Below, piece after piece: positions 1 to 61,589 of a DNA stretch of 64,000 bases. This DNA is from Candidatus Poribacteria bacterium. GTDB lineage: Bacteria > Poribacteria > WGA-4E > PCPOR2b. Location of the stretch: contig OZ242351.1 in assembly GCA_965208675.1 (NCBI GenBank), forward strand, positions 416,001 through 480,000. Direction: 5' to 3'. Made by a program: the position numbers and the translations under genes. The notes under the pieces were generated by a model. The model saw nothing but the letters and a program-made list of their open reading frames with translations, had not been told where the DNA came from and did not search any database. Every line of letters begins with the position of its first letter. Positions within the stretch are counted from its first letter, which is position 1.

Positions 1-1529
1 TGGTAGACGTTGTCCGCGCCAAAGCGGTACATGTTGTCGAGCAGCGCCCAAAAACCGGCAAATGTGCCAACAATTGAGGCGATAACCATTGCAATTAAGA
101 AATGGCGGCTGCGGGCATTTAGCAATTGCGCCATCTTGAATGCTTCAATCTGATGACCAACCGGATGGGAGCGGTATGCGCGGCACATCCAGAACAGATG
201 GCTGAACATGGCGATATTCGTCACCCCGATACGCCGTGAGCCGAATACGTTCAATAGCATCTGATCCGGCCCCATAAACTCGGCGTCGTGTGCTGCGGGA
301 CCTATCTCGGCACGAATGCGAGCTATAGCAACGGCGTAGAGAATATATACGAGTAGAAACAGAAGCACGACCCACGCGGACATGCCGGCGTATCCGAGGA
401 ACACCGCCATAGACACTACACCAAGCACGATGCCGATGATAGCCGATCGGTAGCTCATTGCCTCGTTTGCGGCAGTTTCAGCCGTTTTGCCGCGGACAAC
501 CTCTGTGACCACTTGCTTTAGATGGTTTCGTGCAGACCACAAAGGTAAAATTGCTAAGACTATCCAAGCCCCCGCAGTTTGGTAACTTCGGAATGGCCCC
601 GGTGTTGCCCAGATGCCCACCGCATCTCGATACACTAAGTCCGCCTTCCAGAAAAGATGGAAGAACCAAGCAGAAAACGCCAGATTCAGCGGCAAGAAAT
701 AAGCCATCCCGACCACGAAAGGGTAAACCGCCAAGGGCAGCCAACCGACAGCATTCCACGGCTTTTCGGTGAAGAATCTGCCGAGATTGTAGATAGGTGC
801 AAAATTCGGTGCTGCGGGCCATAAGCCGTGCAGCCCGTTGATGAAGTCAAATGCGCCGGCCAGCCCGAATCCTAGCCACAACATGCGGTTGGAAAGCAGC
901 CCGGTGCCGCCCTTTGCCATCTCCATCGGTAGTTGTATAACTGGATACGCAAGTTTTTCATTTTCTGTCCACTGTTTGCGAATGATTACGTTGATACACA
1001 CAATTACGAAAAAGAGGACGATCAGAAAACCGCCCCAAGATAACGCCGGGACTATCCACGGCATGATATGTTCCGAGATATAGAGAGACGTTTCGCCGTG
1101 ATGGTAACCTAGGAGCGCTGTCGGGTCGTAGACGGTTGCCCATTCGGGTACGTGCCTGCCGAAAAGCGTCATCCATTCGTTTTCTGGCGTCACAAACCAA
1201 AAGCTCGTGAGGTGCTGAACCATGACGAGCAATAGGTCATGTCCGAATATGCCGGTCGCTATGGCTGTCATCACATATATGATGATGAGTTCTACGGGTT
1301 GAAAGGCGGCGCTGGGTGCGAATTTGTTAAGAATGGCGTTTAACACCAGCAGCAGGAATAGGGTGAATGTGACGTTGTAAAATAGTGTGAAGAGTGTCGA
1401 AAAGACGGGCTGATAAATGGTTTCAGCGAGCGTCAGCCAATACAAATTGATAGGGATGAGGAGGGCGCCGGTAATGAGTGCACGGTATGAAATAGAGGTA
1501 GGATTACGAGGGGCAGATCCAGCTTTCAA
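1..1529 (-). CDS. DUF6785/DUF6784-type polytopic membrane protein (putative transporter), 3' end runs off the window
   Basis: Not in the ORF track because it has no stop in the window. Manual translation from TTG 1529 (…ISYRALITGALLIPINLY…TPENEW…IRKQWTENEKLAYPVIQLP…AGFWALL) stays in the same frame at the window edge and is collinear with paralogue 18598-20505. Confidence 0.8.
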   Translation of the reverse strand, partial: MKAGSAPRNPTSISYRALITGALLIPINLYWLTLAETIYQPVFSTLFTLFYNVTFTLFLLLVLNAILNKFAPSAAFQPVELIIIYVMTAIATGIFGHDLLLVMVQHLTSFWFVTPENEWMTLFGRHVPEWATVYDPTALLGYHHGETSLYISEHIMPWIVPALSWGGFLIVLFFVIVCINVIIRKQWTENEKLAYPVIQLPMEMAKGGTGLLSNRMLWLGFGLAGAFDFINGLHGLWPAAPNFAPIYNLGRFFTEKPWNAVGWLPLAVYPFVVGMAYFLPLNLAFSAWFFHLFWKADLVYRDAVGIWATPGPFRSYQTAGAWIVLAILPLWSARNHLKQVVTEVVRGKTAETAANEAMSYRSAIIGIVLGVVSMAVFLGYAGMSAWVVLLFLLVYILYAVAIARIRAEIGPAAHDAEFMGPDQMLLNVFGSRRIGVTNIAMFSHLFWMCRAYRSHPVGHQIEAFKMAQLLNARSRHFLIAMVIASIVGTFAGFWALLDNMYRFGADNVY

Positions 1530-1952: not shown

Positions 1953-4421
1953 ATGAAGAAGACGAATTCAATGTTAATTTTCGCGGTGTTAATTGTAGTT
2001 GGTACGGGACTGCAAGCAATCAACCCCAACGCTTCGGGCGGAAGCGAATCAGGGTTCACCGACAATACTCTCATCTTCGGGCGCGGCGGAGATTCGCTTA
2101 CGCTGGATCCCGCCCTGTTGACCGACGGAGAATCGGCAAAAGTTTGTGAGATGCTGTATGACACGCTAATCCAATACAGAGATGAAACCACCGAACTTGC
2201 ACCTGCATTAGCGGAAACGTGGGAAAGTTCCGCCGATGGGTTGACGTGGACGTTTTACCTGCGCCAAGGTGTCCAATTCCACGACGGTACACCGTTCGGT
2301 GCGGACGCGGTTGTATTCTCGCTCTCTCGTGCGAACACCGTATTTCGTGATTTCCATGCTGAATTCATCAATCAGATTATCGCACTGGATGCGTATACTG
2401 TGCAGATACAACTCAAAAAATCCTACGCGCCTTTCATTAGCACATTAGCAGGGACATCGTATTCTATCGTGAGCCCGGACGCCGTTCAACGCTACGGTGA
2501 CAATTTTGGAGATGTTAACGCCGTCGGTACAGGCCCCTTTAAGTTCGTCCAGTGGGATAAGGGCGACAGCGTCGTCCTTGAAGCAAACGAGAATCATTGG
2601 GCGGGGCGGCCGGCGCTGGATCGGTTTATATTTCGGTCCATACCGGATAACTCGGTTCGGCTGATGGAGCTTCAGGCGGGCAATATCCATGCTATGGAAT
2701 TCCCCAATCCTGAAGAGATACCGGTTATTGAAGCCGATCCACTGATTGAACTAGTCACGCAATCCAGTTTGAACGTCGGGTATTTAGCCATGAATTTCGA
2801 CAAGCCGCCTTTTGACAATTTGAAGGTGAGGCTTGCCATCAACCACGCCATAAACAAACCCGATATTATTGAACGGCTCTATCAAGGCACAGGCATACCC
2901 GCGAAGGGGCCGATACCGCCAACTCTCTGGAGTTACGACGAGGCTATTCAAGACTACGAATATAATCCGGAACTTGCAAGGCAACTTCTCGCTGAAGCGG
3001 GATTTCCCGACGGTTTTGAGACCACGCTCTGGGCATTACCGGTACCGCGCCCGTACATTCCGGATGGCATGGCGCTAGCGGAAGCGTTACAATCCGACCT
3101 TCGGGAAGTTGGGATAGAAGCGGCGGTCGAAACGTTCGACTGGGGTACATACATTGATAAGACCAAAATCGGCGAGCACGATATGGCAATGTTAGGCTGG
3201 ATTGTATCAGAGGGCGACCCAGACAGTTTTTTCTACTATCTGCTGAGCAAGACCTACGCGGAGAAACCCGCTTTCAATATCGCTTTCTATCGCAGCGACG
3301 AAATGCAAGATATACTGGATCGAGCGAGAACCAGCACTAATCGCGGGGAACGTACTGAACTCTACCGGCAAGCGCAAGCGATATTCCACAGAGACGCACC
3401 GTGGGTGCCGCTAGCTCATGCCCAAAGGCTTCTTGTGGTCAATTGGCGAGTGAAGAATCTTAGGCTTGCTCCTACAGGATGGAAATACCTTCGCAGTTTG
3501 TCGTTGGAAGAAGACACGACTTCGCTTTATGTTTCGTCGCTCTCTCAAGGTCTCAACACGATTTCCATTCCCTTGCAACCCGATACGCCGATGAACGCTC
3601 GGACGCTGTCGGATATGGTCGGCGCAACGGCGGTCATTACCCTAGACGCCGCCAACCAACGATTTGTCGGTTGGACACCCGACGCACCTCACGACGGATT
3701 TCCGATTGAAGGCGCAAACGGCTACATCGTCAACCTACCGGAAGCGCGGGAGGTGGCATTCGTCGGCAAAGCTTGGGCAAACCAAGCGCAAGCCGCCGCC
3801 GCACCAAGCCTATCGCACAACGCCGACACGTGGGCGTTTGTGGTTAGCGGGTACTTAGAAAGCAGTCGAAACCTAGGCGGCTATCTCGTCACGGTGCAAA
3901 ATTTAACCACAGGCGATGTCATGACAGGGAGTGTGAGAGACGGTTACTTCGCCGCGGCTACTGCAAATCTCGCACGCCAGAGCGTGGTGAATGTTGGCGA
4001 CACTTTAGAGGTCACCGTCACCGATACGACCGGCGAAATGGCTTCGAAGCCAGTAGTTTTCACGGTTACGCGCGACGCGCTCCTAAACGCAGTACTTCCC
4101 GTAATGCTTGATGGCGTAGGCGTACCGAAGCAAACGATGTTATTGCAGAACTATCCTAACCCGTTCAACCCTGAGACATGGATACCGTATCACCTTTCGG
4201 AGGCAGGCGATGTGTCGATAACTATTTACGATACGGTGGGGCAACGTGTTCGGATACTATCGCTTGGCTTTCAGTCGGAGGGTTACTATCAAAGCCGTTC
4301 GCTCGCCGCCTATTGGGATGGACGGAACGACTTGGGTGAGCGGGTACCGAGCGGTATTTACTCCTATCACCTCTCCGCCGGCGATTATACTGCTGCGCAG
4401 CGGATGGCGATTGTCAAATAG
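1953..4421 (+). CDS. DppA/OppA-family (SBP_bac_5) ABC substrate-binding protein fused to a C-terminal Ig-like module ending in a T9SS-type-A/FlgD-like C-terminal domain
   Basis: Signal peptide; motifs 'TLDPA', 'PALAETWESSADGLTWTFYLRQGVQFHDGTPF', 'VGTGPFKF'; C-terminus 'LLQNYPNPFNPETWIPYHL…YWDGRNDLGERVPSGIY…RMAIVK'. Confidence 0.9.
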   Translation: MKKTNSMLIFAVLIVVGTGLQAINPNASGGSESGFTDNTLIFGRGGDSLTLDPALLTDGESAKVCEMLYDTLIQYRDETTELAPALAETWESSADGLTWTFYLRQGVQFHDGTPFGADAVVFSLSRANTVFRDFHAEFINQIIALDAYTVQIQLKKSYAPFISTLAGTSYSIVSPDAVQRYGDNFGDVNAVGTGPFKFVQWDKGDSVVLEANENHWAGRPALDRFIFRSIPDNSVRLMELQAGNIHAMEFPNPEEIPVIEADPLIELVTQSSLNVGYLAMNFDKPPFDNLKVRLAINHAINKPDIIERLYQGTGIPAKGPIPPTLWSYDEAIQDYEYNPELARQLLAEAGFPDGFETTLWALPVPRPYIPDGMALAEALQSDLREVGIEAAVETFDWGTYIDKTKIGEHDMAMLGWIVSEGDPDSFFYYLLSKTYAEKPAFNIAFYRSDEMQDILDRARTSTNRGERTELYRQAQAIFHRDAPWVPLAHAQRLLVVNWRVKNLRLAPTGWKYLRSLSLEEDTTSLYVSSLSQGLNTISIPLQPDTPMNARTLSDMVGATAVITLDAANQRFVGWTPDAPHDGFPIEGANGYIVNLPEAREVAFVGKAWANQAQAAAAPSLSHNADTWAFVVSGYLESSRNLGGYLVTVQNLTTGDVMTGSVRDGYFAAATANLARQSVVNVGDTLEVTVTDTTGEMASKPVVFTVTRDALLNAVLPVMLDGVGVPKQTMLLQNYPNPFNPETWIPYHLSEAGDVSITIYDTVGQRVRILSLGFQSEGYYQSRSLAAYWDGRNDLGERVPSGIYSYHLSAGDYTAAQRMAIVK

Positions 4422-4445: not shown

Positions 4446-4937
4446 TCAACCGCCTACCTTGACTCGCGCCCACAGTGTTAATCGTTTTAACTTTGGGTGG
4501 ACAGAAGAGGTTTTGTCGACTGGGTGCCCCGCCTGTTCCCAAGCGAAAAACCCACCCAACAGTACCGCAACATTCTCTCGCTTAAAGCCGAATTTATCAA
4601 TTAGCTGGCGTGCCGCACGGACACTGGTGGCTTCAGCCGGTCAGCTTCAGTAAAATACGACAAACGGCTCATTTTTGAGCTCCTGATGCCTCGCAGAGAT
4701 GTCGCCAATCGGCATAGAGATGGCATTCCGAATATGGCCGTTGTCGTAGGCACCTTTGATACGGACATCTATAATCACGACATCATCGCCTGCATCCAAC
4801 CGGGCTTTGAGGTCCGCGACCGTAATTCGCTGCACATCTTCTTCAGGGGGCGCTTGAGCAATCGAAAGTGACGCGAAAAACGTTTGAAGGAGAAGGACGG
4901 TCAACAGGAAGAATATGCACCTATCTGTTTTTTTCAT
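4446..4937 (-). CDS. Secreted rhodanese-like protein, candidate selenoprotein with two in-frame TGA codons (YUSUP), 163 aa with read-through
   Basis: The ORF-track protein stops mid-domain at 'VVFY'. Reading through TGA 4649-4647 and 4643-4641 gives PAEATSVRAARQL…GF…NVAVLLGGFFAWEQAGHPV, the canonical rhodanese C-terminal half; the next stop is TGA 4448-4446. Confidence 0.85.
4610..4624 (-). promoter_or_regulatory. Candidate bacterial SECIS hairpin GUGUC-CGUGC-GGCAC
   Basis: 5-bp stem with a GU-containing loop; the loop starts 21 nt after the second UGA and 27 nt after the first. Folded by eye only. Confidence 0.45.
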
Positions 4938-5025
4938 CGGTTTTTCTCCAAGTGTTGGGTTTTGACATTTGTAATTTTAAGGTGTTCGTCGCCTCAGTGT
5001 CAAGAGTTTTCTGACATTCGTCAAA

Positions 5026-60690: not shown

Positions 60691-60812
60691 ACAGCCGTTA
60701 AGCACAGCTCAATTAAGTTGCTTGGCAAATAAGAACATCTTGATGTTTTTCCCGAGCAGTTTTAACCTGCTTTCCAGCAGCCAACCGGACATGTCAAATG
60801 GAGGTCATAACT

Positions 60813-61589
60813 ATGAGAACCACAGTCAGGTATCTAATGTTGGTATCGGTCGGTTTAATCCTCTTAGGACTGATATTCACCTCACACAATTACGCCCAGG
60901 TTAACCCAGATTCCTTTGCCGGGCTTTGGACCTTTGATGAAGGAGAAGGCAATGAAGCAAAAGATTCTTCAGGCAACGGAAATGATGGGGAGTTTGTGGG
61001 CAACCCCGCTTGGGTCGAGGGGAAATTCGGCAACGCCTTACAGTTTGATGGCTCAAATCATGTTGATTGCGGCGATTCTCGCTCGCTAGATATTGACGGC
61101 GAAGCGCTAACACTGATGGCGTGGGTAAAGCCAAACACAACACAGGGGTTGGATGGAATAATTGAAAAAGAGTGCGGCGCTAATGCCGGTTACAATCTCT
61201 ATTTGGATAACGGCAAAATCCATTTCAGGATGTTTGCCGGCGGGAATGTCGCTGTAGATGCTGTCGATGGGGTTCCCAACAATTCATGGTCGCATATCGC
61301 CGCGGTCTATGACGGTTCTAAGATGAAAGTTTACATCGACGGCGAATTTAACGCGGAAAGAGATCAAAGCGGTAATATAACGACTAATGATATCAAGTTA
61401 GCTATTGGCGCAAGCAGCGAGTGCGGGCGGGGGTACGATGGCGCCATCGACGAAGTCGCTATATTAAACGTTGCCTTGTCCGAAGATGAGATTAGCGATG
61501 TTATGAAGAATAGGTTTCCAGGCGTAAACGCCGTTTCGCCCAACGAAAAAATCGCAACGACCTGGGCTCGGCTAAAATCCGATGGCTAG
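60813..61589 (+). CDS. Secreted LamG/concanavalin-like domain protein with C-terminal 'AVSPNEKIATTWARLK' motif
   Basis: RBS GGAGGT; signal peptide; 'LWTFDEGEG…DSSGNGNDG', 'WSHIAAVYDG…YIDG', 'G.IDEVAI.N.ALS..EI'. Confidence 0.9.
   Translation: MRTTVRYLMLVSVGLILLGLIFTSHNYAQVNPDSFAGLWTFDEGEGNEAKDSSGNGNDGEFVGNPAWVEGKFGNALQFDGSNHVDCGDSRSLDIDGEALTLMAWVKPNTTQGLDGIIEKECGANAGYNLYLDNGKIHFRMFAGGNVAVDAVDGVPNNSWSHIAAVYDGSKMKVYIDGEFNAERDQSGNITTNDIKLAIGASSECGRGYDGAIDEVAILNVALSEDEISDVMKNRFPGVNAVSPNEKIATTWARLKSDG

What the first reader, a model, noticed from the sequence alone, without database searches (positions are those of the whole stretch)
4446..4937. Secreted rhodanese with two in-frame TGA codons in its active-site loop (U-x-U): candidate di-selenocysteine protein
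Seen: the minus-strand frame reads …VVFY-TGA-AGC-TGA-PAEATSVRAARQLIDKFGFKRENVAVLLGGFFAWEQAGHPV…, and the downstream part is an intact rhodanese C-terminal half with no further stop for 64 codons. Established: rhodanese domains of this type often carry 'YCxCPxE' here, and bacterial Sec is encoded by UGA plus a 3' SECIS hairpin. Seen: a GUGUC-CGUGC-GGCAC hairpin lies at 4624-4610. Inference: both Cys positions are Sec. That would need one hairpin to serve two UGAs separated by a single codon, in an exported protein. Two independent nonsense mutations hitting exactly the two Cys codons while the rest stays intact is unlikely. The read-through product also ends in the lineage's C-terminal motif, which supports translation to 4446.
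Basis: partly seen in the sequence, partly recalled or inferred. Interest (0 to 1): 0.88.

Follow-up and report, generated by a model that had tools for sequence, protein, structure and literature searches.

The report
Exported rhodanese with two selenocysteines
This gene encodes a small exported sulfur-transfer enzyme whose active-site loop most likely holds two selenocysteines, each written as a stop codon; a form with this motif was predicted in 2007, but in this sponge-symbiont lineage public gene calls cut the protein off at the first stop.

Summary
The minus-strand gene 4937..4449 (stop TGA 4448..4446) reads ...VVFY-TGA-AGC-TGA-PAEATS... inside an intact rhodanese domain.

It is very likely a real selenoprotein:
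- The genome has tRNA-Sec, selA, selB and a Sec-type selD. RF2 is present and TGA is an ordinary stop.
- In 43 orthologues read here, the second codon is TGA in 43 of 43. The first is TGA in 37 and TGT/TGC in 6.
- Sequence after the TGAs is under purifying selection (omega 0.09-0.33).
- All-Cys relatives carry YCSCPNE.
- The hairpin at 4624..4610 pairs in 195 of 195 cells, with two compensatory pairs. Its synonymous sites are frozen.
- The product ends in a C-terminal tag shared by about 168 frames of this genome.

Novelty is modest. A UxU rhodanese form was reported in 2007 from worm symbionts, the CxU form is curated as NCBIfam NF041203, and UxxU proteins thought to use one SECIS are in print.

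What is new: this clade falls below the NF041203 cut-off, public gene calls stop at 95-96 aa, and the protein combines a signal peptide with the unnamed tail.

Sec insertion and enzyme chemistry remain inferred; no protein-level data exist.

The parts
4446..4937 (-). Full coding sequence of the rhodanese selenoprotein: 163 aa plus its own stop TGA at 4448..4446
   Evidence: Orthologues of 154-176 aa were read in 31 of 41 relatives.
4974..5003 (-). Promoter-like site TTGACA-18-TAAAAT (11 of 12 matches). GGAGA lies at 4949..4945, 7 nt before the ATG.
   Evidence: (consensus scan only). Not tested for function.
4851..4937 (-). Signal peptide, residues 1-29 (MKKTDRCIFFLLTVLLLQTFFASLSIAQA). No twin-arginine motif.
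   Evidence: Read. The model predicts an N-terminal helix at residues 3-25. All 31 orthologues printed start with a basic then hydrophobic N-terminus. The cleavage site is inferred by eye; no predictor was run.
4533..4823 (-). Rhodanese domain, residues 39-135
   Evidence: Pfam PF00581, E 5.4e-16. AlphaFold2 blocks over residues 41-140 average pLDDT 94-96. Foldseek top hits are single-domain rhodaneses such as 3nhv, 3gk5 and 2hhg.
4647..4649 (-). UGA#1, residue 97. Sec here; Cys in some orthologues.
   Evidence: TGA 26, TGT 4, TGC 1 of 31. U 37 and C 6 of 43.
4641..4643 (-). UGA#2, residue 99. Likely the canonical catalytic position of the rhodanese loop (U-X5-S).
   Evidence: TGA 31 of 31 and 43 of 43. 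It aligns without a gap to the catalytic Cys of 1yt8 domain 2 and 6mxv domain 2. The Cys label for those chains is my reading of their CxxxxRS loops.
4610..4624 (-). Candidate SECIS hairpin: 5-bp stem GUGUC/GGCAC with loop CGUGC
   Evidence: 195 of 195 cells paired in 39 distinct rows, and 2 of 5 pairs have compensatory changes; synonymous third positions are frozen; the degenerate motif occurs once in the genome.
4449..4508 (-). C-terminal tail SSVHPKLKRLTLWARVKVGG. It matches the lineage's tag [LF][AS]VxPxGKLATTWGx[LI]K followed by about 3 residues.
   Evidence: All 31 orthologues printed contain a W-x-x-[IVLM]-[KR] tail; L071 lacks it.

Best explanation
The gene encodes a 163-aa exported single-domain rhodanese. 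It has a signal peptide, a rhodanese fold and a lineage-specific C-terminal tag. Its active-site loop reads Y-Sec97-Ser-Sec99-P-A-E-A-T-S.

Both UGAs are recoded to selenocysteine by the organism's SelA/SelB/SelD/tRNA-Sec system. One small hairpin (4624..4610) directs both. It sits 22 nt after UGA#1 and 16 nt after UGA#2. The third TGA, 65 codons after UGA#2, has no such hairpin and terminates.

Sec99 occupies the canonical catalytic position (U-X5-S). Residue 97 is a second redox-active chalcogen, Sec in most genomes and Cys in some.

Inferred chemistry: Sec99 accepts a sulfane sulfur (or selenium) atom or an oxidant. Residue 97 then resolves the adduct by forming an intramolecular diselenide or selenenylsulfide. 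This would make the protein a periplasmic or surface redox and sulfur-transfer catalyst.

Shown here: gene anatomy, conservation, Sec machinery, selection and RNA covariation. Inferred: actual Sec insertion at both codons, the single-SECIS mechanism, export, and the chemistry.
For: Machinery:
- tRNA-Sec scores 77.5 bits against a cut-off of 47 and has anticodon tca.
- It lies beside selB (367.5 bits) and selA (595.6 bits).
- selD scores 375.8 bits and has one in-frame TGA in KCAGUASKL.
- RF2 is present at 512.6 bits. TGA ends 677 of 2005 long open frames.
- The gene's own stop is TGA in 21 of 31 orthologues and TAA/TAG in 10. TGA is therefore not a general sense codon.
- Only 1 of 48 tRNAs has anticodon UCA.

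Conservation:
- 31 of 41 relatives have an orthologue.
- Codon 97 is TGA 26, TGT 4, TGC 1. Codon 99 is TGA 31 of 31.
- With 12 more orthologues the motif is USU 37 and CSU 6 of 43.
- In a phylum sample, 42 of 151 genomes match: 36 with 2 TGA, 4 with 1 TGA, 1 with 1 TGA plus its TAA stop, and 1 paralogue with none.

Translation past the TGAs:
- NG86 omega downstream is 0.09-0.33 in the 9 of 12 pairs where dS was defined. This is equal to or lower than upstream in 4 of the 6 pairs defined on both sides.
- The tail tag is conserved.

Cys homologues: P0011 and P0013 carry YCSCPNE.

SECIS:
- Stem pairing is 195 of 195 cells.
- Pair 2 switches U-A to C-G through two synonymous third-position changes in L071. 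Pair 4 is C-G 26, U-G 11, U-A 2. Only 2 of 500 shuffles reach this.
- 7 of the 9 zero-entropy third positions among 152 codon columns lie in codons +1 to +12 after UGA#1.
- Short contigs in all four runs laid match only 4609-4660.
- CSU and USU forms share the same hairpin.
- A paralogous U-G-U rhodanese (L078) has a different 7-bp hairpin 15 and 21 nt after its UGAs.

Independent assemblies: contigs X5 record 14, X7 record 20 and X12 record 6 cover the TGAs, and no difference is listed at 4641-4649. An RNA-library contig of a relative (X20 record 11) spans 4531-4895.
Against: - There is no protein-level evidence.
- The hairpin is small. The single-sequence fold is not better than shuffles (z -0.13; 77 of 200 shuffles fold at least as well).
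- No Rfam family matches.
- Much of the hairpin's conservation could also come from the conserved S-[VA]-x-A-A peptide. Only three sequences carry double-sided changes.
- P0067 sits inside the clade in the tree and has Y-C-S-R, with Arg at position 99. Sec99 is therefore not indispensable in every relative.
- Two PDB alignments (3tp9 with a 2-residue gap, and BH2092) put the first Cys on the template's Cys. Which of the two positions is catalytic is therefore not settled.
- Family f2 (0 of 100 genomes) lacks the gene although 95 of 100 have selA.
- Gene neighbourhoods differ between genera and give no functional support.
- Table 3 was truncated ('48 more are not shown'), and contigs drop rare variants.
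Confidence: 0.8

Rival explanations
1. Only UGA#2 is efficiently decoded as Sec. UGA#1 mostly terminates, giving the 96-aa fragment, or is read by a near-cognate tRNA. The full-length product would then be rare or would carry a single Sec. This could act as a selenium-dependent throttle on expression.
For: UGA#1 lies 6 nt further from the hairpin (22 against 16 nt). Position 97 tolerates Cys in 6 of 43 orthologues, while position 99 is always TGA. The 2026 hydrogenase paper treats decoding of both UGAs of UXXU by one SECIS only as a possibility (passage seen).
Against: TGA at codon 97 is kept in 37 of 43 genomes across several families, with a frozen AGC between the two TGAs in 31 of 31. A costly leaky stop would be expected to revert to TGY. 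A paralogous U-G-U gene shows the same 15 and 21 nt geometry. Downstream omega is as low as upstream.
Confidence: 0.12
2. The UGAs are recoded to cysteine rather than selenocysteine, by a tRNA-ReC-type system: a SelC-like tRNA charged with Cys and delivered through a SECIS.
For: The caveat is raised for UXXU hydrogenases in PMC13582414 (passage seen).
Against: ARAGORN finds one UCA tRNA among 48. Only one tRNA-Sec match passes the Rfam cut-off; the next best scores 42.7 bits against 47. Only one SelB passes its cut-off; the next hit, at 190 bits, covers profile positions 1-266 of 581 in a 402-aa frame. I read that as the shared translational-GTPase part, but I did not identify the protein.
Confidence: 0.04
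3. The gene is a pseudogene, or the TGAs are assembly errors or reflect a genome-wide TGA reassignment.
For: Public gene callers end the protein at 95-96 aa: 8 of 12 hits are 95-96 aa and one is 115 aa. Two database entries read the TGAs as W, which implies a table 4/25 gene call.
Against: Both TGAs are conserved in 37 of 43 genomes. Purifying selection continues downstream. Contigs of three other runs agree. RF2 is present and TGA is a frequent stop. There is one tRNA-Trp and no other UCA tRNA. The gene itself ends in TGA where orthologues end in TAA or TAG.
Confidence: 0.02

Closest known systems
Rhodanese-related sulfurtransferase selenoprotein, UxU form (Zhang and Gladyshev 2007, NAR, PMC1976440; Olavius algarvensis symbiont metagenome)
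   Same: A rhodanese-family selenoprotein in which 'a second Sec evolved ... resulting in a UxU motif' (passage seen). It is also from a marine invertebrate symbiont community.
   Different: Their sequences (Figure 3A) are not held, so I could not test orthology. That paper assigns its selenoproteins to deltaproteobacterial symbionts. The present clade carries a source name of Candidatus Poribacteria. Here there is also a signal peptide, a lineage C-terminal tag, and covariation support for the hairpin.
NCBIfam NF041203 rhodanese_LYCAU, 'rhodanese-related (seleno)protein'. [quoted passage not shown]
   Same: It is the best NCBIfam hit and covers nearly the whole profile (7-125 of 126). The Y-C-x-U register is the same as the CSU orthologues of family f4.
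   Different: All 11 of 11 members tested score 63-81 bits, below the curated cut-off of 115. The review table lists this form with 1 Sec. Here 37 of 43 have 2 Sec.
Closely spaced two-Sec bacterial selenoproteins: UxxU Prx-like, metal-binding and FmdB proteins, UXXU group 4 [NiFeSe] hydrogenases, and UxxxxU TsoB
   Same: Each has two UGAs a few codons apart upstream of one predicted SECIS. A C/U toggle at the first position occurs without any change of the SECIS.
   Different: The folds differ. The spacing here is the tightest listed, with one codon between the UGAs. TsoB scores only 29.5 bits against a cut-off of 805.
Single-domain Cys rhodaneses: GlpE, PspE, YgaP, and PDB entries 3nhv, 3gk5, 2hhg and 1yt8
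   Same: They share the fold and an active-site loop of canonical length from residue 99. PspE is periplasmic (recalled, not from a call).
   Different: They have a single catalytic Cys and no Sec. They have no partner residue at -2, except in the YCSC relatives P0011 and P0013.

Membership tests
Bacterial selenoprotein (Sec-UGA recoding) | The genome encodes tRNA-Sec, SelA, SelB and SelD | tested here: met
   All four score over their curated cut-offs. selC, selB and selA are adjacent at C1:2.131-2.135 Mb.
Bacterial selenoprotein (Sec-UGA recoding) | The in-frame UGA is conserved in orthologues and pairs with Cys in homologues | tested here: met
   Codon 99 is TGA in 43 of 43. Codon 97 is TGA in 37 and TGY in 6 of 43. 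All-Cys YCSCPNE relatives exist.
Bacterial selenoprotein (Sec-UGA recoding) | Coding constraint continues downstream of the UGA | tested here: met
   Omega is 0.09-0.33 downstream. The Pfam domain spans both TGAs. The conserved tail tag is present.
Bacterial selenoprotein (Sec-UGA recoding) | A SECIS stem-loop lies shortly downstream of the UGA | tested here: inconclusive
   The hairpin is conserved with 2 compensatory pairs, 195 of 195 cells paired and frozen synonymous sites. However, the stem is only 5 bp, the fold z-score is -0.13 and there is no Rfam match. bSECISearch was not available. The spacing rule I compare it with (16-37 nt from UGA to apical loop) is recalled.
Bacterial selenoprotein (Sec-UGA recoding) | Selenium is present in the protein | not testable with these tools
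   This needs 75Se labelling or mass spectrometry.
Rhodanese (Pfam PF00581) | Domain match over Pfam's gathering score, and rhodanese fold | tested here: met
   59.3 bits against 22.2. Foldseek probability is 1.00 to rhodanese structures.
Rhodanese (Pfam PF00581) | Catalytic Cys/Sec at the start of a six-residue loop before the helix | tested here: inconclusive
   Residue 99 aligns without a gap to the Cys of 1yt8 domain 2 and 6mxv domain 2. Residue 97 aligns to the Cys of 3tp9 (with a 2-residue gap) and of BH2092. P0067 has Arg at position 99.
NCBIfam NF041203 rhodanese_LYCAU (CxU selenoprotein form) | Score at or above the curated cut-off of 115 bits | tested here: not met
   The window protein scores 80.6 bits. 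Ten orthologues score 62.9-77.8 bits. All 11 of 11 fall below the cut-off.
NCBIfam NF045694 TsoB (rhodanese/DsbD fusion, UxxxxU) | Score at or above the cut-off of 805 bits; fusion architecture | tested here: not met
   29.5 bits, rhodanese part only. The protein is 163 aa and has a single domain.
UxU rhodanese form of Zhang and Gladyshev 2007 | A rhodanese-related sulfurtransferase with a U-x-U motif | tested here: met
   The motif Y-U-S-U lies in a rhodanese domain. Sequence-level orthology with their contigs is not testable, because the figure and supplements are not held.

The most novel reading that the evidence does not exclude
A single minimal 5-bp SECIS hairpin lets SelB insert selenocysteine at two UGAs only one codon apart, at spacings of 22 and 16 nt. 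The product is an exported rhodanese with a U-x-U diselenide redox centre. It is routed by a previously unnamed C-terminal tag ([LF][AS]VxPxGKLATTWGx[LI]K) that marks about 170 exported proteins of this sponge-symbiont lineage. If so, this is a natural system for measuring how much spacing bacterial SelB tolerates. It would also be a new protein-sorting signal.
Probability: 0.45. Interest if true: 0.6.

Novelty: new member of a known kind. Interest (0 to 1): 0.45.

Why it matters
Bacterial proteins with more than one selenocysteine are rare. The 2026 review counts 119 families or subfamilies, 'the vast majority' of them with one Sec (passage seen).

This clade offers 43 natural sequence variants of one gene, with UGA-NNN-UGA and one covarying hairpin. 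That makes it a good test bed for a specific question: can one SECIS and SelB serve two stop codons 6 nt apart?

It also exposes an annotation gap. Public gene calls for this lineage stop at residue 95-96 or read the TGAs as Trp. The curated NCBIfam model does not reach the clade. Selenoproteomes of these sponge symbionts are therefore probably undercounted.

The shared C-terminal tag may be a separate lead on protein sorting.

Tried and rejected
- Thermodynamics. The 63-nt single-sequence fold is no better than shuffles (z -0.13). The case for the hairpin therefore rests on conservation and covariation, not on energy.
- An outer AGCUG/CAGCU stem in the window's fold is not conserved in other genera, so I dropped it.
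- Two 2-bp helices that RNAalifold proposed around the UGAs pair in 98.7-100% of cells but are too short to mean much. They are not claimed.
- Rfam. The only match at E up to 10 was a spurious lncRNA hit.
- Synteny. An FAD-dependent disulfide oxidoreductase of the MerA/Lpd type follows the gene in the two loci of genus g5 that I listed (L030, L028). Read-through frames of several other g5 loci show the same ORF start. It does not follow the gene in the window or in other genera. The window's neighbours are an ABC ATPase, a DppA-like binding protein and a 670-aa protein with no NCBIfam match at E up to 1e-10. No operon argument is made.
- Gene tree. The base is unresolved, so I could not tell whether USU arose from CSU or the reverse. 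The tree needs 2-3 changes, and a single origin is not excluded.
- The '1 TGA' rhodanese hits in G005 and G009 proved to be ordinary stop codons at gene ends.
- Naming the tail. Pfam and NCBIfam cover only the LamG part of the other tail-bearing protein in the window. One literature search found nothing relevant.
- RNA evidence. One metatranscriptome-library contig of a relative spans the TGAs. Contigs cannot show transcription level or strand, and DNA may be present in such libraries, so this is only a hint.
- The representative-library search was dominated by multi-domain rhodaneses. It gave only three useful single-domain rows.
- Print searches:
  - 'UxU' with selenocysteine: 7 papers, 1 relevant.
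  - rhodanese, selenoprotein, selenocysteine and SECIS: 26 papers.
  - Poribacteria with selenocysteine: 3 papers, none on rhodanese by title or abstract.
  - UxxU, SECIS and bacteria: 5 papers.
Either may list sequences like these.
Full report
OBSERVATION

On the minus strand an ATG at 4937 follows a GGAGA (4949..4945) and a promoter-like TTGACA-18-TAAAAT (5003..4974, consensus match only). It opens a frame that reads MKKTDRCIFFLLTVLLLQTFFASLSIAQA... and then ...NEPFVVFY-TGA-AGC-TGA-PAEATSVRAARQLIDKFGF... It ends at ...KRLTLWARVKVGG-TGA.

TGA#1 is 4649..4647, TGA#2 is 4643..4641, and the terminal TGA is 4448..4446. Pfam's rhodanese model matches residues 39-135, straight across both TGAs (E 5.4e-16). 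That is 22 nt after TGA#1 and 16 nt after TGA#2.

DOES THE ORGANISM DECODE SEC, AND IS TGA OTHERWISE A STOP?

The window lies in a single-contig 4.89-Mb genome.
- The genome has a tRNA-Sec (77.5 bits against Rfam's cut-off of 47; anticodon tca).
- This gene lies directly beside selB (367.5 bits) and selA (595.6 bits).
- selD is itself a selenoprotein gene, with one in-frame TGA in KCAGUASKL.
- RF2 is present (512.6 bits).
- TGA closes 677 of 2005 open frames of 300 codons or more.
- ARAGORN finds 48 tRNAs, of which only one has anticodon UCA.
- The rhodanese gene itself ends in TGA in 21 of 31 orthologues and in TAA or TAG in the other 10.

A genome-wide reassignment of TGA is therefore excluded. 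I found no sign of a second SelC-like tRNA or a second SelB that could deliver Cys. That is the tRNA-ReC caveat raised in PMC13582414 (passage seen).

ORTHOLOGUES

Among 41 genomes (own plus 40 relatives), 31 have an orthologue at E 1.5e-27 or better. The other 10 have only paralogue-level hits. I read all 31 through.
- Each is 154-176 aa, with a basic then hydrophobic N-terminus, the rhodanese domain and the same tail.
- Codon 97 is TGA in 26, TGT in 4 and TGC in 1.
- Codon 99 is TGA in 31 of 31.
- The Ser codon between them is AGC in 31 of 31.

A phylum-wide sample of 151 genomes gave 42 matches at E 1e-20 or better. Of these, 36 have two TGAs, 4 have one, 1 has one TGA plus its true TAA stop, and 1 is a paralogue with none. 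One family (f2) has 0 of 100, although selA is present in 95 of 100 of its genomes and in 144 of 151 overall.

I read twelve further orthologues. The totals become U-S-U 37 and C-S-U 6 of 43. Protein identity to the window's product falls to 37-50% in most genera.

TRANSLATION CONTINUES PAST THE TGAs

Nei-Gojobori omega for the 62 codons after TGA#2 was defined in 9 of the 12 pairs computed. It ranges from 0.09 to 0.33. In 4 of the 6 pairs where both sides were defined, it is equal to or lower than for the 60 codons before TGA#1.

All-Cys relatives exist. P0011 and P0013 carry YCSCPNE(A/V)TSAR, which satisfies the usual Sec/Cys-homologue criterion at both positions.

THE C-TERMINAL TAIL

The tail is a real lineage feature. 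In the genome, 168 of 29358 stop-to-stop frames carry W[GAS]x[IVLM][KR] within their last 14 residues. A control slice has 29.

The consensus is [LF][AS]VxPxGKLATTWGx[LI]K followed by about three residues. Val at -10 occurs in 129 of 168, Pro at -8 in 103, and Lys at -5 in 112.

By a crude regular expression, 117 of the 136 longer frames have signal-peptide-like N-termini, against 150 of 500 random frames. The rhodanese tail SSVHPKLKRLTLWARVKVGG matches at the V, P, K, W, A, V and K positions.

THE HAIRPIN

RNAalifold on 26 sequences recovers the 5-bp stem. On 43 sequences (39 distinct rows), all 195 of 195 cells pair.
- Pair 4 is C-G 26, U-G 11, U-A 2.
- Pair 2 is U-A in 38 rows and C-G in one (L071). 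There AGU...GCA became AGC...GCG, so both changes are synonymous third positions.
- Only 2 of 500 shuffles reach the observed pairing or covariation. Slid registers pair in 20-65% of cells.

Of 152 gap-free codon columns, 9 have an invariant third position. Seven of those 9 lie in codons +1 to +12 after TGA#1, including AGC, GAA, AGU, GYC, GCG and RCA.

In all four runs laid, extra short contigs match only 4609-4660, with unlike sequence on both sides. The UGA-plus-hairpin block is therefore the most conserved DNA of the gene across community members.

CSU and USU genes share the same hairpin. A separate rhodanese in genome G008, with no signal peptide and no tail, reads TY-U-G-U-PGEGS. It has its own, different 7-bp hairpin 15 and 21 nt after its UGAs.

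Several points count against the hairpin as a SECIS:
- The stem is short.
- The single-sequence fold is not better than shuffles (z -0.13).
- Nothing matches in Rfam.
- Part of the conservation may come from the conserved S-[V/A]-x-A-A peptide.

I therefore call the SECIS 'likely', not 'shown'. The spacing window for bacterial SECIS elements that I compare it with (16-37 nt from UGA to apical loop; here 27 and 21) is recalled and comes from no call.

INDEPENDENT ASSEMBLIES

Contigs from three other sponge-metagenome runs cover the TGAs: X5 record 14 (37.8 kb), X7 record 20 and X12 record 6. No difference is listed at 4641-4649, though the table was truncated. A 374-nt contig from a metatranscriptomic library, about 89% identical, spans 4531-4895. 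Together with 43 genomes this rules out assembly error. It is only a hint of expression.

WHICH RESIDUE IS CATALYTIC?

Profile alignments place residue 99 on the Cys of the CxxxxRS loops of 1yt8 domain 2 and 6mxv domain 2, without gaps. They place residue 97 on the Cys of 3tp9 only with a 2-residue gap, and on the YC of BH2092.

Residue 99 gives the canonical U-X5-S loop length and is TGA in 43 of 43. I therefore take it as the catalytic position and residue 97 as a partner. However, P0067, which sits inside the clade in the tree, has Y-C-S-R, so this is not settled.

The AlphaFold2 model has a mean pLDDT of 85, with blocks over residues 41-140 averaging 94-96. It puts both residues in the loop between strand 93-96 and helix 103-116. 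Its nearest structures are single-domain rhodaneses.

MECHANISM (INFERRED)

SelB with Sec-tRNA binds the hairpin and decodes UGA#1. Two codons later a second SelB complex uses the same, still unmelted hairpin for UGA#2. The distant third TGA is read by RF2.

The signal peptide has no twin arginines. The protein is probably exported unfolded and then routed by its tail. In the oxidising periplasm, Sec97 and Sec99 could form a diselenide, or a selenenylsulfide in CSU forms. Such a centre could cycle with sulfane sulfur or other oxidants. No call tests any of this chemistry.

COMPARISON WITH WHAT IS KNOWN

Rhodanese selenoproteins are established computational families. The 2026 review lists five forms, including 'form 3, CxU, NF041203' and the two-Sec UxxxxU TsoB (table passages seen).

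The 2007 Olavius-symbiont paper states that in a rhodanese-related sulfurtransferase 'a second Sec evolved ... resulting in a UxU motif' (passage seen). UxxU proteins, and the idea that one SECIS serves both UGAs, are also in print. The kind is therefore known.

The present clade differs in these ways:
- NF041203 is its best hit, but all 11 of 11 members tested score 63-81 bits against a cut-off of 115.
- Eight of the 12 public homologues found are 95-96-aa N-terminal fragments and one is 115 aa. One of them is named 'rhodanese-like domain-containing protein [Candidatus Poribacteria bacterium]'.
- Two database entries read the TGAs as Trp.
- The term 'UxU' does not occur in the 2026 review, because that paper is absent from the search.
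- No paper pairing Poribacteria with selenocysteine concerns rhodanese, judged by listing and abstracts only.

Supplements, and the 2007 figure with the sequences, could not be seen.

VERDICT

Novelty: a new member of a known kind.

Interest is about 0.45. This is a clean, well-replicated natural case of two Sec codons one codon apart with a covarying hairpin, and it is missed by current annotation. A selenoprotein specialist would not be very surprised by it.

Noticed in passing
window 4449-4508 (-) and window 60798-61589 (+); genome-wide in G000: There is a lineage-specific C-terminal tag, [LF][AS]VxPxGKLATTWGx[LI]K plus about 3 residues. It ends 168 of 29358 stop-to-stop frames, against 29 in a control slice. 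Carriers are mostly proteins with signal-peptide-like N-termini, including LamG-like paralogue families, ~350-aa proteins with a 'SPAWFDP' motif and 590-660-aa proteins with a 'DWQDP' motif. No Pfam or NCBIfam model covers it. It looks like an undescribed sorting or anchoring signal.
   Followed up: partly
L078 (G008:C33), about 584-680 (+): A second rhodanese in a related genome has no signal peptide and no tail. It reads TY-U-G-U-PGEGS and has its own 7-bp hairpin 15 and 21 nt after the two UGAs. U-x-U therefore occurs in at least two rhodanese lineages of the phylum. P0034 (FY-W-G-W-RGEHTS, a TGA=W gene call) may be another.
   Followed up: partly
P0067: A homologue placed inside the clade in the tree reads Y-C-S-R-PAEQTS, with Arg where all 43 orthologues have TGA. 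CGA is one step from TGA. It also lacks the tail. It may be an inactivated or re-purposed copy. I could not read its DNA.
   Followed up: no
G000:C1:4649539-4650462 (-) (L018): selD of this genome is itself a selenoprotein gene (KCAG-U-ASKL), with a different hairpin starting right after the UGA.
   Followed up: partly
L030 1978-3456 (+), and the same ORF in other genus g5 loci: In genus g5 the rhodanese gene is followed by an FAD-dependent pyridine nucleotide-disulfide oxidoreductase of the MerA/Lpd type, with a CLWTGC redox motif. Its best NCBIfam score is 485.8 bits, below every cut-off. This pairing is not present in the window's genus.
   Followed up: partly
window 1953-4421 (+): A DppA-like ABC substrate-binding protein is extended to 822 aa by a long C-terminal region that ends like a T9SS-type sorting domain (...NYPNPFNPETWIPY...). 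That label is recalled, not tested. The gene converges on the rhodanese gene, with 24 nt between the two stop codons.
   Followed up: no
phylum sample, family f2: One large family of the order (100 genomes sampled) has no orthologue of this rhodanese, although 95 of 100 of its genomes keep selA. The gene is dispensable in that family.
   Followed up: partly
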